DNA of 41,593 nt from Pseudomonas phage LKA1: the sequence record AM265639.1; one strand, 5' to 3'. The notes beneath the pieces were generated by a model, which was not told the origin of the DNA, searched no databases, and saw nothing but the letters and a program-made list of their open reading frames with translations. Position 1 is the first letter of the stretch, and each line of letters begins with the position of its first letter. Made by a program: the position numbers and the translations under genes. This document shows positions 6,235 through 29,068 of the stretch, in pieces.

Positions 6235-6434
6235 GTGGCAAGAGCTACACTGTAGAGCTGGTGAACGGTCGCGTGTTCCAGCACAGTAATATCGACGTGG
6301 TGCACAGCGACCGACACGGGCAGTTGAAGCTCATGCGGGAAGCTGAAAGCGGTCACAAGGCCGACCGAGAACTGGCCGCTGCCTACCAGATGGGCATGGT
6401 CCTGGCGTTTCAGGAGGTGCCCGTGGAGAGCTAG
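6231..6434 (+). CDS. Hypothetical protein, 67 aa
   Basis: RBS AAGGAGG before ATG 6231. Confidence 0.5.
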   Translation: MSGKSYTVELVNGRVFQHSNIDVVHSDRHGQLKLMREAESGHKADRELAAAYQMGMVLAFQEVPVES

Positions 6435-6520
6435 CAGATACCCGATTCCGCATAGAGTACCCCTAAAGATCGGGCATCTTCGCCGCCTAGCCCACGGCAC
6501 TACCGTACAGGAGCAACATC

Positions 6521-6874
6521 ATGACCGACCGTATCCAGAAACTGAACGACCAGATCGCTACCCTCGAAGCCAAGGCCGCCGAGCTGATTGCTAAGGCCAA
6601 TACCCTCCGCGAGGAGCTGGTATCCCTGGAGCGCATCCAGAGCATCGCCGAGCGTGACGCCGTGACCTTCGAGATTGGCCGCAAGGACGACAAGCAGCTC
6701 GTCACCGGCGTGGTGCTGGGCGTGGCCGACACCGACGCCGGCAAGCAGATTCGCGTCTTCGTCGAGGCCGGCTTCAACAGCACTACGTACACTCTCAAGG
6801 CCAGTCAAATCGTGGACGTACTGCGTCCGCAGACTGCCGAGGCTACTGAGGTCGCTGAGCAGCCTGCCGAGTAA
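6521..6874 (+). CDS. Hypothetical protein, 117 aa, coiled-coil N-terminus
   Basis: RBS CAGGAG before ATG 6521. N-terminus IQKLNDQIATLEAKAAELIAKANTLREELVSLE has a heptad-like pattern. Confidence 0.6.
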   Translation: MTDRIQKLNDQIATLEAKAAELIAKANTLREELVSLERIQSIAERDAVTFEIGRKDDKQLVTGVVLGVADTDAGKQIRVFVEAGFNSTTYTLKASQIVDVLRPQTAEATEVAEQPAE

Positions 6875-6892
6875 CATCGGGTCTCAGTGCAA

Positions 6893-6920
6893 GGGGCTGG
6901 CCGCATAACCGGCCCCTTCT
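6893..6920 (+). terminator. Candidate intrinsic terminator or RNA hairpin
   Basis: GGGGCTGG-ccgcataa-CCGGCCCC stem-loop followed by TTCT. The U-run is weak. It sits in the 105-nt gap before conserved element copy 3. Confidence 0.3.
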
Positions 6921-6928
6921 GCGGATAC

Positions 6929-6950
6929 CCGTAACCGCTGCACTCGCAGC
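6929..6950 (+). promoter_or_regulatory. Conserved element CCGTAACCGCTGCACTCGCAGC, copy 3
   Basis: 22-nt identity with copy 2. Lies in the 105-nt gap before ATG 6979, after the candidate hairpin at 6893-6920. Confidence 0.45.
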
Positions 6951-6978
6951 TCAATTTCTGTAACGACGAGGTGAGACC

Positions 6979-7428
6979 ATGAAAGCTACTAAGAACCTGA
7001 ACGGCGCTGCTCGCGTGGCTGTGCAAGCTAAGCTGGACGCGGCTGACAAGGAGCTGCGCAAGGCCCGTGACCTGGTGCAACAGCGCACCGAGGAGCTGGG
7101 GCGGGTGCGCGAGACTGTGCGCCGGTACCCCGGGGAGAACGAGGACTTGCGCAATCAGCTTGCCCAGGCAAACCACCAGATCAAGTGGCTCGGTGGGAGC
7201 TGCCGTAAGCACCTCGACACCATCCAGGCCCTGGAGGCCAAGCAAGTGGACCACGACGAGTTCGTGGAGAAGATGGAACTGGAACTCGACATTGCCGAGG
7301 AGCAGATTCAGTACCACAAGGAGCGAATCACTACGGTGAAGTGGATAGCCTACGCCCTGTGCGGTGCGGTCGTAGGATTGGCCTGGAAGCTCTCCCAGCA
7401 CATCGGTTGGTTCGGGGGTGTGCTGTGA
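6979..7428 (+). CDS. Membrane-anchored coiled-coil protein, 149 aa
   Basis: RBS GAGGTGAG before ATG 6979. Long heptad-like region and a C-terminal hydrophobic segment WIAYALCGAVVGLAWKL. Confidence 0.55.
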   Translation: MKATKNLNGAARVAVQAKLDAADKELRKARDLVQQRTEELGRVRETVRRYPGENEDLRNQLAQANHQIKWLGGSCRKHLDTIQALEAKQVDHDEFVEKMELELDIAEEQIQYHKERITTVKWIAYALCGAVVGLAWKLSQHIGWFGGVL

Positions 7429-7453
7429 GCCTCAACGCGGGCTGGAGGTCAAG

Positions 7454-8175
7454 ATGAGTGGGCAAGTGAAGCTAAACCATAGCGCCGACGACGTGGCACA
7501 GATGCGTAGAGACTGGGCAGAGAGTTCCCACTTCGACGCGCCCGCTGATTTGCCAGGGCTCCTCGATGATTACGACGCCATGCACGCAGAGGCCGAGGCG
7601 CTGCGGGCTGAGAATGCAAAATGGCAAAGAAGCCATCAGGATATCCATGAGCCGGCATTACGTGAAGCCCATGCGTATATCCAAGAACTGCGCACCGAGC
7701 TGGAGGAGGCGCAGGGATTGCTGCGCGATATGCGCCACGCCGCGCGCATTAACCCCTCCTGCCAGCAGGGCATGGTAAATCCTTGCCGCTGTGGGTATTG
7801 CGTTGACTTGCGAATTGACGCTTTCCTCACCTCCACCCAGGCGCCGGAAGCGCGGGACCATATTGAGCGTCACCTCACAATGGCCGAGCAGGGAGAGCGG
7901 CAGGAGGCAGTGGCGTGGGCGTTAGCAAATAGCGCAGACGAGATTGGCGGGTTTGCGCCGATTTATTACACCAAAGAAGGCGCGATCAGTTGGCAAATGG
8001 CCGGAACATTTTCCCGCTCTACACCACCCCGCAGCCAGGCCCGGACGTGCGGGCGCTGGTGGAGGCGCTGGAAGGAATACTCGAGTATTTCCCAGTGGGC
8101 AATTCTGACGGCGAATGCTTCAGCATCGAAAAAGCCGAGAAAGCCCTATCCGCCCACCGCCAGGCGCAATCGTAA
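7454..8175 (+). CDS. Hypothetical protein whose coding signal moves to the +1 frame near 7990 (frameshift or indel)
   Basis: GGAGG then ATG 7454. The product looks protein-like up to ...YYTKEGAISWQMAG at about 7997. After that the same frame runs on with no stop for ~370 nt of Arg/Trp-rich, low-GC3 sequence. The +1 frame from 7990 (ANGRNIFPLYTTPQPGPDVRALVEALEGILEYFPVGNSDGECFSIEKAEKALSAHRQAQS) has about 75% GC3 and ends in TAATG, coupled to the primase start at 8175. Confidence 0.4.
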
Positions 8176-8978
8176 TGGCCCTGCCCGAGAACGAGTGGCT
8201 GCACAAGGCGCAGGCGCTGGCCATCGGGCAAACCTCCCGCACGTACCACAACGAGGAGAACCGTGCGAGCCTCGTGATCGGCAACGACATCGACCGTTGG
8301 TGGGCGTACTGTCACCGCTGTCACGAGGGCGGGCAGGTGCTGAAGACACATGTGCTCGTGGGTGCTGAGGTCCAGGTCCAGGAGCGCTTCATGCCCTGGC
8401 CCGACGATGCTAAACCCGCAGCCAGTGACGAGCTGTACCGCAGCGTGTACCGCACCCTGTTAGGCAAAGGCATCGACCTGGGTAGTATGCTGCCTGGGGT
8501 GCCCATGTACATCAGTCGCCGCCAGGGTCGCCTGATCCTCGCCAGTGCGCAGGGGTGGTTGGGCCGCGCCATCGGCGCAGTGCAGCCGAAGTGGTGCGCG
8601 TACTCAAACCCAGGCCAGCGCCCGGCTGTGTTCGCACACCACCCGCACGATCATATTACGAGGCGGTGTGTGGTCACGGAGGACTACTTCTCAGCGCTCA
8701 AGATAAGGTGGGCTTTGAATGATCCAGAAACTACTGCGATTGCTGCGCTCGGGACTCGTGTGCACAATCGCCTGGCGGCTGCCCTCCTCGAAGCAGATGA
8801 GGTGCTGTTCGCATTCGATGGGGACCGAGCCGGGGCTGACGGGTGGCCAGCAGCCGCCCGCCGCCTACGTGGCCTCGGCAAGTCAGTTCGCATCTGCGAT
8901 GTCCCACAGGGGTTAGACCCCAAGGATATGCAGGCGCACCAGATACAGGAGATGATAAATGGGTCGCCGACCGAGTGA
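8175..8978 (+). CDS. DNA primase (zinc-ribbon plus TOPRIM), 267 aa
   Basis: N-terminal CHRCHEGG zinc-binding motif. TOPRIM-like EDYFSALKI ... FDGDRAGADG acidic motifs. It sits immediately upstream of the helicase, as the T7 gp4 primase region does. Confidence 0.75.
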   Translation: MALPENEWLHKAQALAIGQTSRTYHNEENRASLVIGNDIDRWWAYCHRCHEGGQVLKTHVLVGAEVQVQERFMPWPDDAKPAASDELYRSVYRTLLGKGIDLGSMLPGVPMYISRRQGRLILASAQGWLGRAIGAVQPKWCAYSNPGQRPAVFAHHPHDHITRRCVVTEDYFSALKIRWALNDPETTAIAALGTRVHNRLAAALLEADEVLFAFDGDRAGADGWPAAARRLRGLGKSVRICDVPQGLDPKDMQAHQIQEMINGSPTE

Positions 8979-8994
8979 TGAGGAATTGGAGGCT

Positions 8995-9141
8995 ATGGAT
9001 CGCGCCCACGCTGCCGTGGCGAAGGCGCAGCGGGAGTGCGGGCATTACTACTGTCGCCCGGTCGAATGGTACTGGAGCGGCGCGGTGCGCGTAATGCAGT
9101 GTGATGACTGCGGCTCGCAAGACTTCCGGGAGGAGCAATGA
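8995..9141 (+). CDS. Small zinc-ribbon protein, 48 aa
   Basis: GGAGG before ATG 8995. Contains CGHYYC ... CDDCGS Cys pairs. Confidence 0.35.
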   Translation: MDRAHAAVAKAQRECGHYYCRPVEWYWSGAVRVMQCDDCGSQDFREEQ

Positions 9142-9347
9142 GCAACCGTGACCAACCGATCCACATGCTCCGGTACTGGATCAATGATAAGGGTATCGAG
9201 AGGCTGTCGGAGTATTACCCGAAGCTGACCAAGAACGACGCCGAGATTCGTGCGGCCTTGGAGCACCGTGCCTTGGCCGAGCGAGCGTTGCTGTCCAGGG
9301 TCGATGAATTGATGGGCCTAGCGGGCGACGAGGATGATTATGAGTAG
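9138..9347 (+). CDS. Hypothetical protein, 69 aa
   Basis: ATGA coupling with the upstream stop. Overlaps the helicase start. Confidence 0.45.
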   Translation: MSNRDQPIHMLRYWINDKGIERLSEYYPKLTKNDAEIRAALEHRALAERALLSRVDELMGLAGDEDDYE

Positions 9348-10605
9348 CGATACTTTGATCCTGCAAGCGCTGCGCGAGAAGCAGAAGTACCGAACGCTGA
9401 TAGGCACCGTGCCCACCGGGATGCTTGGCACCGAGGCGCAGTGCCTATTGGCCTGGTATCCGATCTACCACCAAGCGTACCCTGAGCACGAGTACCTGGA
9501 CATCGACGCGCTCGATGCCCTGGTGAAGCTCCGCTCCGGGTACAGCCCTGAGCAGATGGCGACGGTGCGCCACGCCATGCAGCTCATGCGCCAGCACGTT
9601 GACCAGGGTGCCATCAAGGGCGTCGTGAACCAACTGTACGAGCGGGACTTCGCCGGTCGTGCCGGTGCCCTGCTCTCCCAGTACAACGCCGGGGGCGAGG
9701 TTGATCTAGTGTACGAGCTGAGTCGCATTGCGCAGGAGACGCAGCGCGTCGTGGCCCAGAGCGCCAGCTCCGACTGGATTCAGGACAGCATCGAGGACAT
9801 CCTGAAACAGGAGGAGAAGGACTTCGGCCTGAAGTTCCCGCTGCCTGTCTTGGAGGCGCACATCAAGGGCCTCCTGGGAGGCGCCTCAGTGGCTTTGGCA
9901 GGGCGCCCCGACAAGGGTAAGACCAGCCTCATTGCATTCATCCTAGCCCGCTTTGCGGGGCAGCTAGACCGGTACTTCGACCCGGAGCGACCTATCCTCT
10001 GGCTGAACAACGAGGGCAAGGGTCAGCGCATCATCCCACGTATCTACCAGGCCGCCCTCGGGGTGGACATGGACGAGCTGGTGGCGATGAGCAACGCCGG
10101 CACCCTGCGCGATGCGTACACCGCCAAGGTTGGCCGTGTGGATCGTATCCGTGTAAAGGATATGCACGGTGCGAGCTTCGCCCAGATCGAGCAGGTCATC
10201 GAAGCGATGAAGCCCTGTGTTGTCGTCTGGGATATGATGGCGAACTTCCGCCTGGGGCACAGCTCCGGGGGTGGGAACAAGGCCGATGAGGTGGAGGAGA
10301 AGTGGCAAGTCGCCCGTGAGATGGCGGTGCGCCACGACTTCGTGAGCCTGGGTACTGTCCAGATCAGCAACGAGGGTGGGAACATGCTGTACCCGCCGTA
10401 CTCTGCGCTCAAGGACAGCAAGACCGGTATCCAGGGCGCGACCGATCTGATCGTCATGATGGGGGCGCTGGATGCGCCTGAGATGGCGTCGCTACGTGGT
10501 ATCAGCACGCCGAAAAACAAGTTCCAGATGCCCAAGATGCCAAGCCACATAACCTCTGAGGTATTTTTCGATGCAGCGAGATGTCAGTTCGAGCAAGGTT
10601 CTTAA
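9334..10605 (+). CDS. Replicative DNA helicase (DnaB/T7 gp4-helicase-like), 423 aa
   Basis: Walker A GRPDKGKTS. RecA-like fold signatures (ILWLNNEG, VVVWDMMANF). Position after the primase. Confidence 0.85.
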   Translation: MIMSSDTLILQALREKQKYRTLIGTVPTGMLGTEAQCLLAWYPIYHQAYPEHEYLDIDALDALVKLRSGYSPEQMATVRHAMQLMRQHVDQGAIKGVVNQLYERDFAGRAGALLSQYNAGGEVDLVYELSRIAQETQRVVAQSASSDWIQDSIEDILKQEEKDFGLKFPLPVLEAHIKGLLGGASVALAGRPDKGKTSLIAFILARFAGQLDRYFDPERPILWLNNEGKGQRIIPRIYQAALGVDMDELVAMSNAGTLRDAYTAKVGRVDRIRVKDMHGASFAQIEQVIEAMKPCVVVWDMMANFRLGHSSGGGNKADEVEEKWQVAREMAVRHDFVSLGTVQISNEGGNMLYPPYSALKDSKTGIQGATDLIVMMGALDAPEMASLRGISTPKNKFQMPKMPSHITSEVFFDAARCQFEQGS

Positions 10606-26172: not shown

Positions 26173-26808
26173 ATGCAACTTACTTTTCTTGAGGCGGTGA
26201 ACCTCGTCCTACGAGAACTCGGCGAGACCCCCGTGACCTCTGTAGACGAGACGTACCCCACGCTGGCGCAGATTCTCCCAGCTATGGAGGACGCTCGCCG
26301 AAACACCCTCGCCGAGGGTTGGTGGTTCAACAGCTTTGATGACTTCACCGCAAGTCCCTCGCCGGCTGGTGAGGTGCTTCTATCCGAGGATACCTTGGCC
26401 TTCTATCCAGACGATGTGGAGAAGTTCACCTGGGCGGGCCGTTACGTCCGTGTTACTGGTACAGGTTCTAAGGTAGTTGGCGCTCCGGTGAAGGGGCGTG
26501 TCGTACTGGATATCCCCTACGACGAGCTACCCGAGGGTATGCGCTATCTCGTGGTGTACCGCTGCGCCTACGAGGTGTACGTCGCCGACTTCGGCGCGGA
26601 TAGTACGGCACAGGTCATTGCGAACAAGATGTCCGCAGCATACGTGGAGGTCCGGGCGGTCCACATCCGGCAGCGGAAGCTCACCCTGCGGAAGCGGACC
26701 CCGGCCACCAGTGGCGTCAAGCGAGGTACAACTAATGAGTTACTTTGCAGGATCGTACCGGCAGCTCCTGTTTGGCGTAAGTCAACAGACTGCCAAGGAT
26801 CGCCTTGA
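26173..26808 (+). CDS. Tail tubular protein A (T7 gp11-like), 211 aa
   Basis: AAGGAGA before ATG 26173. The N-terminus (MQLTFLEAVNLVLRELGETPVTSVDE) aligns with T7 gp11. The 3' 74 nt overlap the tubular B start. Confidence 0.8.
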   Translation: MQLTFLEAVNLVLRELGETPVTSVDETYPTLAQILPAMEDARRNTLAEGWWFNSFDDFTASPSPAGEVLLSEDTLAFYPDDVEKFTWAGRYVRVTGTGSKVVGAPVKGRVVLDIPYDELPEGMRYLVVYRCAYEVYVADFGADSTAQVIANKMSAAYVEVRAVHIRQRKLTLRKRTPATSGVKRGTTNELLCRIVPAAPVWRKSTDCQGSP

Positions 26809-29068
26809 GGGGCAGGTCGAGTCGCAGTTGAACATGCAGAGTGATCTGGTGACAGGTCCTCGCCGCCGTAGTCCGGTGCACCTGATCGCCGACGCCATGG
26901 CCGCTACCGATGCCAACCGCCTCGCGTACTCCCTCGCCACATTCTCGGGGCGCGAGGTGCTGCTGCTGGTGGACACACTGGACGGGACGCTGACTATCCT
27001 CGACGATGCAACCGGTGAAGTCCTGTTCACGGGGACAAACAGCTACCTTACCGCAGGTACAGGGAGAAGCATCCGATTCGCAGCACTAGATGACAGCGTG
27101 TTCGTGGCGAATACCGAGGTTATCCCGCAAACGCAGCTATGGTCTGGTGCGAGTGCGTACCCGGACCCAACCCGTGCGGGCTACCTGTACGTAGTCGCCG
27201 GGGCGTTCTCGAAGCAGTACCGCCTATCCATCACCAACCAGGTCACGGGGGTCACGACTTCCGTAGACGTGACCACCTCTGCAACAGAGGCCAGTCAGGC
27301 TACCGGCGAGTACGTGATCACGCAGCTCCGCACGGCGGCAGAGGCGGATGCAACCATTGGTACTGCTGCCGGTTTTGCGTACTACCAGGACGGTGCGTAC
27401 CTGTACGTTACCGCGCCAGAGGCAATCGCGGTGAGTACCGACTCTGGCAGTAACTTCCTCCGGGCAAGTAATGCAGCCAGTATCAGGGACGCCGCCGAGC
27501 TGCCTGCAAAACTACCTGCCGATGCGGATGGGTTCATCATCGCTACCGGCGCCGCTAAGAACAAGACATACTTCCGCTGGGTCGATCTTGAGCGGAAGTG
27601 GGACGAGGATGCGTCTCGGGGTGCACAAGCTGAGCTGATCGACATGCCGCTACGGATCACGTACTCGGCCCCGAACTTCAGCCTGACTGCCTTGAACTAC
27701 GAGCGCCGTGCCTCTGGGGACGCTACGTCGAACCCTGCCTTGAAGTTCACCGAGCAGGGTATCTCTGGGATGACGACCATGCAGGGGCGGTTGGTCTTGC
27801 TGGCTGGCGAGTACGTGTGCATGTCCGCAAGCGGGAACCCACTGCGTTGGTTCCGGGCCAGTGTCAGTACCCAGTCTGACGACGATCCTATCGAGGTCGC
27901 GGCTACTGCACCAGTGGCCTCCCCGTATGAGTACGCCGTGGCCTTCAACAAGGACCTGGTGCTCTTTGCCAAAACCCACCAGGGCCTGGTGCCGGGGGCG
28001 AACCTACTCACGAGTCGCAACGCCACAGCGGCGGTCGTTACAGAGTACAGCTTCCAGAACTCCTGCTCGCCTGTGGTCGCTGGGCGCACAGTGTTCTTTG
28101 CCAGTCCCCGTAGCGGTCCATGGAGCGCGGTGTGGGAGATGCTGCCAAGCCAGTACACTGATGCCCAAGTGGAGGCGAGCGACAGTACGTCGCACCTGCC
28201 GAAGTACATTGCGGGGCCTGTACGCTTCTTGGCGACCTCCAGTACAACGAGCATCGTGGTCGTGGGTACGTCGAATCTCCGCGAGTTGGTTGTGCACGAG
28301 TACCTCTGGCAAGGTGGGGAGAAGGTTCACGCCGCGTGGCATAAGTGGAGCTTCCCGCAGGACATCACGGGTGCGTACTTCCGGGGCGACCGCCTCATCC
28401 TGCTGTTCCACGTTGCGGGTCGGGTCATCCTCGGCGAGCTGTTCATGCAACGCCTTGGGGATGCCCAGAGTATCCCAGGTGGATTCCTGGACCTGTACCG
28501 TGTCGGGGCGGCCAACGCGGACGAGGAGGTGGCCATCCCAGCGTTTGCTGCGGACCTGTACCCGGAGGATAGCACCTTCGCGTACAAGCTCTCGGGCGAG
28601 TTCCAGTCCCTCGGCCAGCGCTGTGGGGATCGTCGGGTAGACGGGGCCACGGTGTACATCAAGGTCGTCGGGGCACAGGCGGGAGATCAGTACCGCATTG
28701 GCTTACGCTACCTCTCGAAGCTCGGGCCGACCCGCCCCATCCTCCGGGACCCCAACGGCGTACCGATCACTACAGAGCGCACGCAGTTGCACCGTCTAAC
28801 GTGGTCTCTGGACAGTACCGGGGAAGTGACGTTCCGTGTGGCCGATCAGGCACGCGGGGAGTCCGCGTACACGACCACGCCGCTTCGCCTGTACAGTCGG
28901 GACCTGGGCGCGGGTTTGCCCTTAGCGGCAACGGCAACCCTCGACACCCCTGCCAGGGTGGATATGCAGACGGCGCAGTTCTCCCTGGAGACTGACGACT
29001 ACTACGACATGAACATTACCAGCCTGGAGTACGGGTTCCGGTACAACCAGCGCTATAGGAGGCAGTAA
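26735..29068 (+). CDS. Tail tubular protein B (T7 gp12-like), 777 aa
   Basis: The N-terminus (MSYFAGSYRQLLFGVSQQTAKDRLEGQ) aligns with T7 gp12 residue for residue at the GxSQQ motif. TAATG coupling to the next gene. Confidence 0.85.
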   Translation: MSYFAGSYRQLLFGVSQQTAKDRLEGQVESQLNMQSDLVTGPRRRSPVHLIADAMAATDANRLAYSLATFSGREVLLLVDTLDGTLTILDDATGEVLFTGTNSYLTAGTGRSIRFAALDDSVFVANTEVIPQTQLWSGASAYPDPTRAGYLYVVAGAFSKQYRLSITNQVTGVTTSVDVTTSATEASQATGEYVITQLRTAAEADATIGTAAGFAYYQDGAYLYVTAPEAIAVSTDSGSNFLRASNAASIRDAAELPAKLPADADGFIIATGAAKNKTYFRWVDLERKWDEDASRGAQAELIDMPLRITYSAPNFSLTALNYERRASGDATSNPALKFTEQGISGMTTMQGRLVLLAGEYVCMSASGNPLRWFRASVSTQSDDDPIEVAATAPVASPYEYAVAFNKDLVLFAKTHQGLVPGANLLTSRNATAAVVTEYSFQNSCSPVVAGRTVFFASPRSGPWSAVWEMLPSQYTDAQVEASDSTSHLPKYIAGPVRFLATSSTTSIVVVGTSNLRELVVHEYLWQGGEKVHAAWHKWSFPQDITGAYFRGDRLILLFHVAGRVILGELFMQRLGDAQSIPGGFLDLYRVGAANADEEVAIPAFAADLYPEDSTFAYKLSGEFQSLGQRCGDRRVDGATVYIKVVGAQAGDQYRIGLRYLSKLGPTRPILRDPNGVPITTERTQLHRLTWSLDSTGEVTFRVADQARGESAYTTTPLRLYSRDLGAGLPLAATATLDTPARVDMQTAQFSLETDDYYDMNITSLEYGFRYNQRYRRQ

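What the first reader, a model, noticed from the sequence alone, without database searches (positions are those of the whole stretch)
7454..8175. Coding frame shifts +1 without a stop near 7990, immediately upstream of the primase gene
From ATG 7454 (GGAGG RBS) the frame encodes a convincing protein up to ...IYYTKEGAISWQMAG (about 7997). It then runs on stop-free for 370 nt of Arg/Trp-rich, low-GC3 sequence that overlaps the primase gene. The +1 frame from 7990 has about 75% GC3, reads ANGRNIFPLYTTPQPGPDVRALVEALEGILEYFPVGNSDGECFSIEKAEKALSAHRQAQS, and ends in TAATG, coupled to the primase start at 8175. The only start in that frame is a TTG at 7990 with no RBS. The region 7454-7990 also has noticeably lower GC3 (about 65%) than its neighbours. 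Three explanations fit: a sequencing indel, a programmed +1/-2 frameshift giving a ~240-aa fusion, or a late-acquired gene whose 3' end decays into the next gene.
Basis: seen in the sequence. Interest (0 to 1): 0.55.

Follow-up and report, generated by a model that had tools for sequence, protein, structure and literature searches.

The report
One missing G splits a phage gene
The apparent frameshift upstream of the phage LKA1 primase gene is one missing G in a GGG run of an otherwise ordinary single gene of about 240 codons, most likely an error in the deposited sequence and not programmed recoding.

Summary
The window is Pseudomonas phage LKA1 (41,593 bp). In detail: coding signal and homology leave the frame of ATG 7454 at 7991-7993 and continue to the TAATG at the primase start (8175). 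The change is -1, not +1.

Seven contigs carrying homologues are identical to window 7910-8041 (132 nt) except that they read CAGTTGGGCAAATGG where the window reads CAGTTGGCAAATGG. In all seven the frame reads straight through this site; one of them carries its own separate frameshift 36 nt further on. Adding one G to the window gives a 240-aa gene ending in TAATG.

An LKA1-like phage contig has a single 216-aa ORF in the same slot, with the same 5' and 3' ends. All eight relatives examined end the gene before primase in TAATG.

There is no slippery site and no unusual downstream RNA structure. The 0-frame tail matches nothing and has a non-coding base pattern.

A second one-base deletion found only in this record (about 26708, AA to A) breaks the end of the tail tubular protein A gene in the same way. 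That favours sequence error (about 0.6) over a recent real mutation (about 0.3). Programmed frameshifting is about 0.03. The annotated 304-aa ORF is wrong, and the protein's function is unknown.

The parts
7444..7448 (+). GGAGG ribosome-binding site of the gene. Identical in the LKA1-like contig L012.
7454..7993 (+). 5' part of the gene (180 codons, 0 frame), up to TGG 7991-7993. It has an N-terminal coiled-coil module, a Cys-rich stretch and the EQGERQEAVAWALANSADEIGGFAPIYYTKEGAISW module.
   Evidence: 69% identical to P0002 with E = 1e-71. Alignment.
7991..7993 (+). Site of the frame break: TGG followed by CAA. Seven homologous contigs have TGG GCA here, one G more, within 132 nt of otherwise identical DNA (120 nt in L010).
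   Evidence: The pattern scans found only the GGG form.
7993..8175 (+). 3' part of the same gene in the -1 frame (ANGRNIFPLYTTPQPGPDVR...SAHRQAQS, then TAA 8173-8175). With one G restored the whole gene is 240 codons.
   Evidence: Repaired translation. 85% identical to the P0014 C-terminus with E = 3e-34. The 3' end is identical to L012.
7994..8368 (+). 0-frame read-through tail of the annotated 304-aa ORF (Arg/Trp-rich). It is a by-product of the missing base, not coding sequence.
   Evidence: No homology. Out-of-phase base composition, with GC3 of 0.42 across the primase overlap.
8175..8978 (+). DNA primase gene. Its ATG overlaps the stop of the repaired upstream gene (TAATG).
   Evidence: Toprim domains and PHROG primase families. 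The TAATG junction is present in all 8 relatives examined.
7441..8171 (+). Swapped cassette relative to the closest complete relative, HHBS14_1, which has 229 nt with a different 73-aa gene here. The cassette ends at the -1-frame stop, not at the 0-frame stop.
   Evidence: (alignment blocks 6412-7440 and 8172-8954).

Best explanation
7454-8175 is one gene of about 240 codons. It is a mosaic early gene of unknown function that is also found on integrase-bearing, apparently temperate, Pseudomonas phage contigs. In normal form it ends in TAATG, so that its termination is coupled to initiation of the primase gene. In this record one G of a GGG run is missing (window 7991-7993, TGG|GCA read as TGG|CA). 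That throws the reading frame by one base and creates a spurious 304-aa ORF running 194 nt into the primase gene. I judge the missing G most likely to be a base-calling or assembly error in the deposited LKA1 sequence, not a property of the phage. Nothing is being recoded.

Shown: the one-base difference, the single-ORF state of homologues and of the gene in the same slot of a related phage, and the absence of frameshift signals.

Inferred: that the base is missing from the record and not from the phage.
For: - Identity of the window: P0001 is 'hypothetical protein [Pseudomonas phage LKA1]', 304 aa, on a 41,593-bp contig. The genome length is confirmed in PMC3072928.
- Seven contigs (L003, L004, L006-L010; five distinct gene architectures) match window 7910-8041 exactly (to 8029 in L010), except that they have GGG where the window has GG.
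- Scans of the viral, genome and metagenome collections with a pattern that accepts either form found only the GGG form.
- 20 of the 120 listed cluster representatives contain ISWANGRN in one frame; only the LKA1 protein contains WQMAG.
- Adding one G gives a 240-aa ORF that ends at TAATG.
- The LKA1-like contig L012 has the same gene order and 87-94% nt identity in flanking genes. It has one 216-aa ORF in this slot with the same RBS, the same 5' 150 nt and the same 3' end and TAATG.
- All 8 relatives examined end the gene before primase in TAATG, whatever that gene is.
- The cassette boundary against HHBS14_1 lies at the -1-frame stop.
- For error over mutation: the record has a second unique one-base deletion (about 26708, AA to A). 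It breaks the last 9 codons and the stop/start overlap of the tail tubular protein A gene. Four LKA1-like sequences (HHBS14_1, L013-L015) all have the extra A and end ...PANQWRQARYN*. That peptide is still readable in the window's shifted frame, and the two downstream substitutions are synonymous in that frame.
- From general knowledge: finished Sanger-era genomes typically carry a few errors per 40 kb. I recall, but did not check, that LKA1 was sequenced by Sanger methods in 2006.
Against: - No reads or traces are available, so a real mutation in the sequenced stock cannot be excluded.
- L010, a metagenome contig I assume to be short-read assembled, carries an independent one-base deletion (CCCC to CCC) 36 nt downstream with an intact downstream frame. 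Genuine frameshift alleles of this family may therefore exist in nature.
- Apart from these two sites, the window shows no other uncompensated coding indel against HHBS14_1. The record is not generally poor.
- A run of only three G is not a classic error-prone homopolymer.
Confidence: 0.62

Rival explanations
1. The G really is missing in LKA1, as a recent spontaneous frameshift mutation in a non-essential, horizontally acquired gene. The phage would then make a 180-aa N-terminal fragment fused to a 124-aa out-of-frame tail. The C-terminal module would be lost, and ribosomes would run 64 codons out of frame into the primase gene instead of terminating at TAATG.
For: - The sequence as deposited says so.
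- An independent frameshift allele exists in a metagenome contig of the same family (L010).
- The slot is dispensable: L016 has no gene there, and HHBS14_1 and L017 have other genes.
- The DNA is identical to intact homologues, so any such mutation would be recent, which fits the intact downstream frame.
Against: - It would abolish a stop/start overlap with the essential primase gene that is conserved in all 8 relatives examined, so it is probably costly.
- The same record has a second unique one-base deletion with the same signature in a structural gene. Two real mutations of this kind in one 41.6-kb genome are less likely than two errors.
Confidence: 0.31
2. Programmed -1 (or +2) ribosomal frameshifting near 7990 joins the two frames into a 240-aa product, alongside a 0-frame product.
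For: - Both frames are open across 7933-8175.
- The two parts are halves of one family.
- A second family member (L010) is also split nearby.
Against: - There is no X_XXY_YYZ heptamer and no XXX slip site anywhere in the stretch scanned, 7933-8060. The break, at TGG|CAA, is not slippery.
- The downstream 100 nt fold no better than shuffled sequence (z = -0.94).
- Homologues with identical flanking DNA simply have one more G and one frame.
- The L010 break is at a different site.
- The 0-frame product would be a 304-aa protein with a tail that matches nothing and reads through the primase start.
Confidence: 0.03
3. There are two separate genes: the 0-frame ORF and an independent 61-codon gene starting at TTG 7990 or a downstream GTG.
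For: A TTG at 7990 with a weak AAGG 9 nt upstream, and an intact frame ending in TAATG.
Against: - The 61-aa peptide is the C-terminal module of a single protein in every homologue.
- No homologue starts there.
- The N-terminal residues of the would-be gene (ANGRNIFP) continue the ISW|ANGRN module without a break in 20 cluster representatives.
Confidence: 0.03

Closest known systems
One-base indel errors, or frameshifted pseudogenes, in deposited phage genomes
   Same: A single base is missing from a short homopolymer. The flanking DNA is identical to intact homologues. The downstream frame is intact. The annotated ORF has a tail that matches nothing and overlaps the next gene. A second such site occurs in the same record.
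   Different: Nothing differs in kind. Only read-level data can separate error from mutation.
Programmed -1 ribosomal frameshifting (dnaX, the phage tail-chaperone G/GT pair, IS element transposases)
   Same: Two overlapping open frames whose products together make one protein, with a shift direction of -1.
   Different: There is no slippery heptamer and no stimulatory structure. The two-frame layout is not conserved, since all homologues are single-frame. The 0-frame product does not end near the shift site.
Mosaic gene cassettes in phage early regions, of the kind described for lambdoid phages (recalled from general knowledge)
   Same: The block 7441-8171 is swapped as a unit between related phages. 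Family members share short stretches of near-identical DNA (encoding DYDALHAEAEALRAEN, EQGERQEA, PQPGPDVRxLVEALE, AAHRQAQ) between unrelated internal modules.
   Different: Here the exchange partners include integrase-bearing, apparently temperate, Pseudomonas phage contigs and an LKA1-type podophage described in the literature as phiKMV-related. The protein has no known function or named family.

Membership tests
Programmed -1 ribosomal frameshift site | Slippery sequence (X_XXY_YYZ, or at least a P-site XXX slip) in the 0 frame where both frames are open | tested here: not met
   none in the stretch scanned, 7933-8060. The break maps to AGT TGG CAA.
Programmed -1 ribosomal frameshift site | Stimulatory RNA structure just downstream | tested here: not met
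   the minimum free energy of 7994-8093 is -37 kcal/mol, z = -0.94 against shuffles. 32 of 200 shuffles fold at least as well.
Programmed -1 ribosomal frameshift site | The two-frame arrangement is conserved in homologues | tested here: not met
   homologues read through this site in one frame. The only other split member (L010) breaks at a different site.
Programmed +1 frameshift (prfB/RF2 type) | Downstream frame is +1 relative to the upstream frame, at a poor or stop codon in the 0 frame | tested here: not met
   Frame arithmetic: 0-frame codons start at 7991 and the downstream frame at 7990, which is -1. There is no 0-frame stop until 8366-8368.
Sequence-record indel error | A single-base difference from intact homologues within otherwise identical DNA, in a homopolymer | tested here: met
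   132 nt identical in six contigs, GGG against GG.
Sequence-record indel error | Other anomalies of the same kind in the same record | tested here: met
   AA to A at about 26708. It is unique to the window among five LKA1-like sequences and breaks a conserved C-terminus and stop/start overlap.
Sequence-record indel error | Reads or traces, or independent re-sequencing, show the extra base | not testable with these tools
   No reads are available and no second LKA1 record is in any collection searched.
Unnamed mosaic early-protein family of Pseudomonas phages (P0002, P0008, P0014 and similar) | N-terminal MS..DYDALHAEAEALRAEN coiled coil, an EQGERQE motif, a PQPGPDVRxLVEA motif and a C-terminal AHRQAQ, all in one polypeptide of about 200-400 aa | tested here: met
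   all motifs are present when the two window frames are joined. With the 0 frame alone, the last two motifs are missing.

The most novel reading that the evidence does not exclude
The GG allele is real and is maintained in LKA1. The phage would then express a truncated N-terminal coiled-coil fragment of a gene derived from temperate-type phages, and out-of-frame read-through would lower primase translation. Alternatively, a non-canonical -1 shift at UGG_CAA would restore a fraction of full-length protein. A second natural split allele 36 nt away (L010) would then hint that breaking this module is recurrent and selected.
Probability: 0.05. Interest if true: 0.45.

Novelty: not a real feature. 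Interest (0 to 1): 0.1.

Why it matters
Mainly for annotation. The 304-aa LKA1 protein in the public databases (P0001) is a chimera of a real N-terminal part and an out-of-frame tail. The true product is most likely a 240-aa protein ending at the primase start. The C-terminus of tail tubular protein A in the same record is probably wrong as well. Anyone cloning or modelling these LKA1 proteins should re-sequence first. The result also removes a candidate recoding site from further consideration. A minor biological point is that an LKA1-type podophage shares near-identical DNA modules with integrase-bearing, apparently temperate, Pseudomonas phages, in a hypervariable slot just upstream of its primase gene.

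Tried and rejected
- **Function of the protein.** Pfam gave only a sub-threshold coiled-coil hit. PHROGs gave nothing. NCBIfam gave nothing for two proteins and sub-threshold GpsB coiled-coil hits for two. PDB sequence profiles gave only coiled-coil noise with E of 0.01 or worse. An AlphaFold2 model of the closest intact homologue, P0002, had mean pLDDT 71 and pTM 0.39. Only a long N-terminal helix (residues 9-70) was confident. A Foldseek search of the PDB found nothing with E of 0.001 or better. The function stays unknown.
- **Close relatives in the phage collection.** DNA and tblastn searches found the gene only in two Leptolyngbya/Plectonema phage records, at 40% protein identity. HHBS14_1 and HHBS51_1 lack the cassette.
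- **Genome collection.** The genome-contig scan for the junction pattern found nothing.
- **Literature.** The original LKA1 genome paper (PMC1595506, DOI 10.1128/JB.00831-06) is not held. I found no LKA1 transcriptome or proteome paper.
- **Signals.** The promoter and terminator scan of 6800-9400 shows nothing between the gene and primase.

Full report
**Identity of the window.** A protein search with the two joined halves returned, as best hit, 'hypothetical protein [Pseudomonas phage LKA1]'. It is 304 aa and sits on a 41,593-bp contig (P0001). That is exactly the ORF from ATG 7454 to 8368. PMC3072928 lists LKA1 as 41,593 bp, 60.9% GC, NC_009936, and the window is 60.9% GC. LKA1 itself is absent from the phage DNA collection. 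Its closest complete relative there is Pseudomonas phage HHBS14_1, at 90.5% identity over 78% of the first 25 kb.

**Checking the observation.**
- GGAGG lies at 7444-7448 and ATG at 7454.
- The 0 frame reads ...IYYTKEGAISWQMAGTFSRS... and stays open to 8368.
- The other frame reads ANGRNIFPLYTTPQPGPDVR...SAHRQAQS and stops at TAA 8173-8175, overlapping the primase ATG at 8175-8177.
- Codon-position GC follows the same switch. It is 0.67/0.44/0.66 for 7454-7993 in the 0 frame and 0.65/0.44/0.71 for 7990-8175 in the shifted frame. The 0 frame after 7991 is out of phase at 0.44/0.71/0.65, and its GC3 falls to 0.42 over the primase overlap, against 0.86 in the primase frame.
- One correction matters for mechanism. 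0-frame codons start at 7991 and shifted-frame codons at 7990, so the change is -1 (or +2), not +1/-2.

**What the two halves are.** Both belong to one protein family. Leptolyngbya phage Lbo-JY16 has a single 222-aa ORF that matches both halves. The large protein database holds 141 relatives. An alignment shows the conserved motifs DYDALHAEAEALRAEN, EQGERQE, PQPGPDVRxLVEA and AHRQAQ in one polypeptide.
- The window's 0-frame part matches P0002 with E = 1e-71.
- Its shifted-frame part matches the C-terminus of P0014 at 85% identity with E = 3e-34.
- The 0-frame tail matches nothing.

**Where the break is.** Many homologues read ...APIYYTKEGAISWANGRNIFPLYTTPQPG..., while the window reads ...KEGAISW in one frame and ANGRNIFPLY in the other. 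At the DNA level, L003 and L004 are identical to the window around the site except for CAGTTGGGCAAATGG against CAGTTGGCAAATGG.
- A pattern that accepts either form was scanned over the viral, genome and metagenome collections. It found four more contigs (L006-L009), all with GGG.
- In all seven contigs, including L010, the identity runs from window 7910 to 8041 (to 8029 in L010). That is 132 nt (120 in L010) with one extra G as the only difference.
- 20 of the 120 listed cluster representatives carry ISWANGRN in a single frame. Only the LKA1 protein carries WQMAG.
- Inserting one G after 7993 gives a 240-codon ORF that ends in TAATG.

**The same slot in related phages.** L012, a Logan contig, is LKA1-like. 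It has the same order of genes (149-aa gene, this gene, primase, helicase, ligase) and 87-94% nt identity in the flanking genes. In this slot it has one ORF of 216 aa. Its RBS and first 150 nt or so, and its last 25 nt or so including TAATG, match the window. Its internal module differs.

Against HHBS14_1 the non-homologous block is window 7441-8171. The cassette therefore ends at the shifted-frame stop, not at the 0-frame stop.

Other LKA1-like contigs fill the slot in different ways: no gene at all (L016), a hybrid of about 100 aa (L017), or a 73-aa gene (HHBS14_1). In all eight relatives examined, the gene before primase ends in TAATG. Only the 0-frame reading of the LKA1 record breaks this rule.

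**Programmed frameshifting.** This reading has no support.
- The shifted frame is open from 7933.
- Between 7933 and 8060 there is no X_XXY_YYZ heptamer and no XXX slip site. The only homopolymers of 4 or more are TTTT at 8009 and CCCC at 8027, neither in a slippery register.
- The 100 nt downstream fold no better than shuffled sequence (z = -0.94).
- Homologues with the same flanking DNA are simply in frame.

**Error or real mutation.** Sequence alone cannot settle this, but one further result bears on it. A whole-genome comparison with HHBS14_1 showed only one other uncompensated one-base indel inside a conserved gene, at about 26708.
- There the window reads GGCCACCAGTGG. HHBS14_1 and three IMG/VR LKA1-like contigs (L013-L015) read GGC(C/T)AACCAGTGG.
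- All four relatives end tail tubular protein A with ...RKRTPANQWRQARYN*, overlapping the next gene's ATG.
- The window's frame instead runs 78 nt into the next gene, yet QWRQARYN** is still readable in its shifted frame.
- The two substitutions downstream of the indel are synonymous in that shifted frame.

The record therefore has two unique one-base deletions with the same signature, one of them in a structural gene. I judge that more likely for a 2006 Sanger assembly (sequencing method recalled, not checked here) than for a viable phage. Breaking the conserved coupling to an essential primase would also probably be costly.

Against this, L010 (a metagenome contig) carries an independent CCCC-to-CCC deletion 36 nt downstream with an intact downstream frame. 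Real split alleles may therefore occur.

My estimates are: record error about 0.62, recent real mutation about 0.31, and recoding or two separate genes about 0.03 each.

**Function.** Nothing could be assigned. Pfam, PHROGs, NCBIfam and PDB sequence profiles gave no significant match, only sub-threshold coiled-coil hits. The AlphaFold2 model of P0002 is confident only for a long N-terminal helix, and Foldseek found no match.

From context, the gene sits next to excisionase and integrase genes on apparently temperate phage contigs and just upstream of primase in LKA1-like phages. I infer that it is a dispensable early accessory protein.

**Verdict.** It is an ordinary one-base indel, probably an error in the record, with no sign of recoding. 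The annotated 304-aa ORF should be replaced by a 240-aa gene once re-sequencing confirms the extra G.

Noticed in passing
window 26173-26808 (indel at about 26708): The tail tubular protein A gene has a one-base deletion (AA to A) found only in this record, 27 nt before its conserved stop. Four LKA1-like sequences end ...PANQWRQARYN* with a stop/start overlap. The window's frame instead runs 78 nt into the next gene (ATG 26734). This is probably a second error in the record.
   Followed up: yes
L010 1132-1260 (ENA contig k127_199453, P0025): This is an independent one-base deletion (CCCC to CCC) in a homologue, 36 nt downstream of the LKA1 site. The downstream frame still encodes the full C-terminal module. 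The same protein is on record in 2 contigs. It could be a natural frameshift allele or an assembly error.
   Followed up: partly
window 7441-8171; L012 5746-6409; L016, L017 and L001 upstream of primase: The slot just upstream of primase is hypervariable among LKA1-like phages. It holds no gene, a 73-aa gene, a hybrid of about 100 aa, a 216-aa gene or a 240-aa gene. The upstream gene always ends in TAATG at the primase start.
   Followed up: partly
window 7564-8175; L003, L004, L005, L006-L009: The gene family is highly mosaic. Short stretches of near-identical DNA (encoding DYDALHAEAEALRAEN, EQGERQEA, PQPGPDVRxLVEALE, AAHRQAQ) separate unrelated internal modules. They are shared at 84-100% nt identity between the LKA1-type podophage and integrase-bearing, apparently temperate, phage contigs. 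They look like recombination linkers.
   Followed up: partly
window 7757-7800: A Cys-rich stretch, SCQQGMVNPCRCGYC (C-x8-C-x-C-x2-C), is conserved in P0002, P0004 and P0013. It could be a small zinc-binding knuckle within one of the swappable modules.
   Followed up: no
L002 (PP438408.1, Leptolyngbya phage Lbo-JY16) 2945-3613: Two records labelled as cyanobacterial (Leptolyngbya/Plectonema) phages carry a member of this otherwise Pseudomonas-associated family. They match it at 93-94% nt identity over the conserved linker stretches. The host assignment of those records may deserve a check.
   Followed up: no
L011 (HHBS14_1) 26418-28226: HHBS14_1 annotates a 543-aa hypothetical protein on the minus strand (26595-28226). 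Two plus-strand ORFs (26418-27191 and 27204-28208) lie where scaffold and capsid genes are expected. This is probably a mis-annotation in that record.
   Followed up: no
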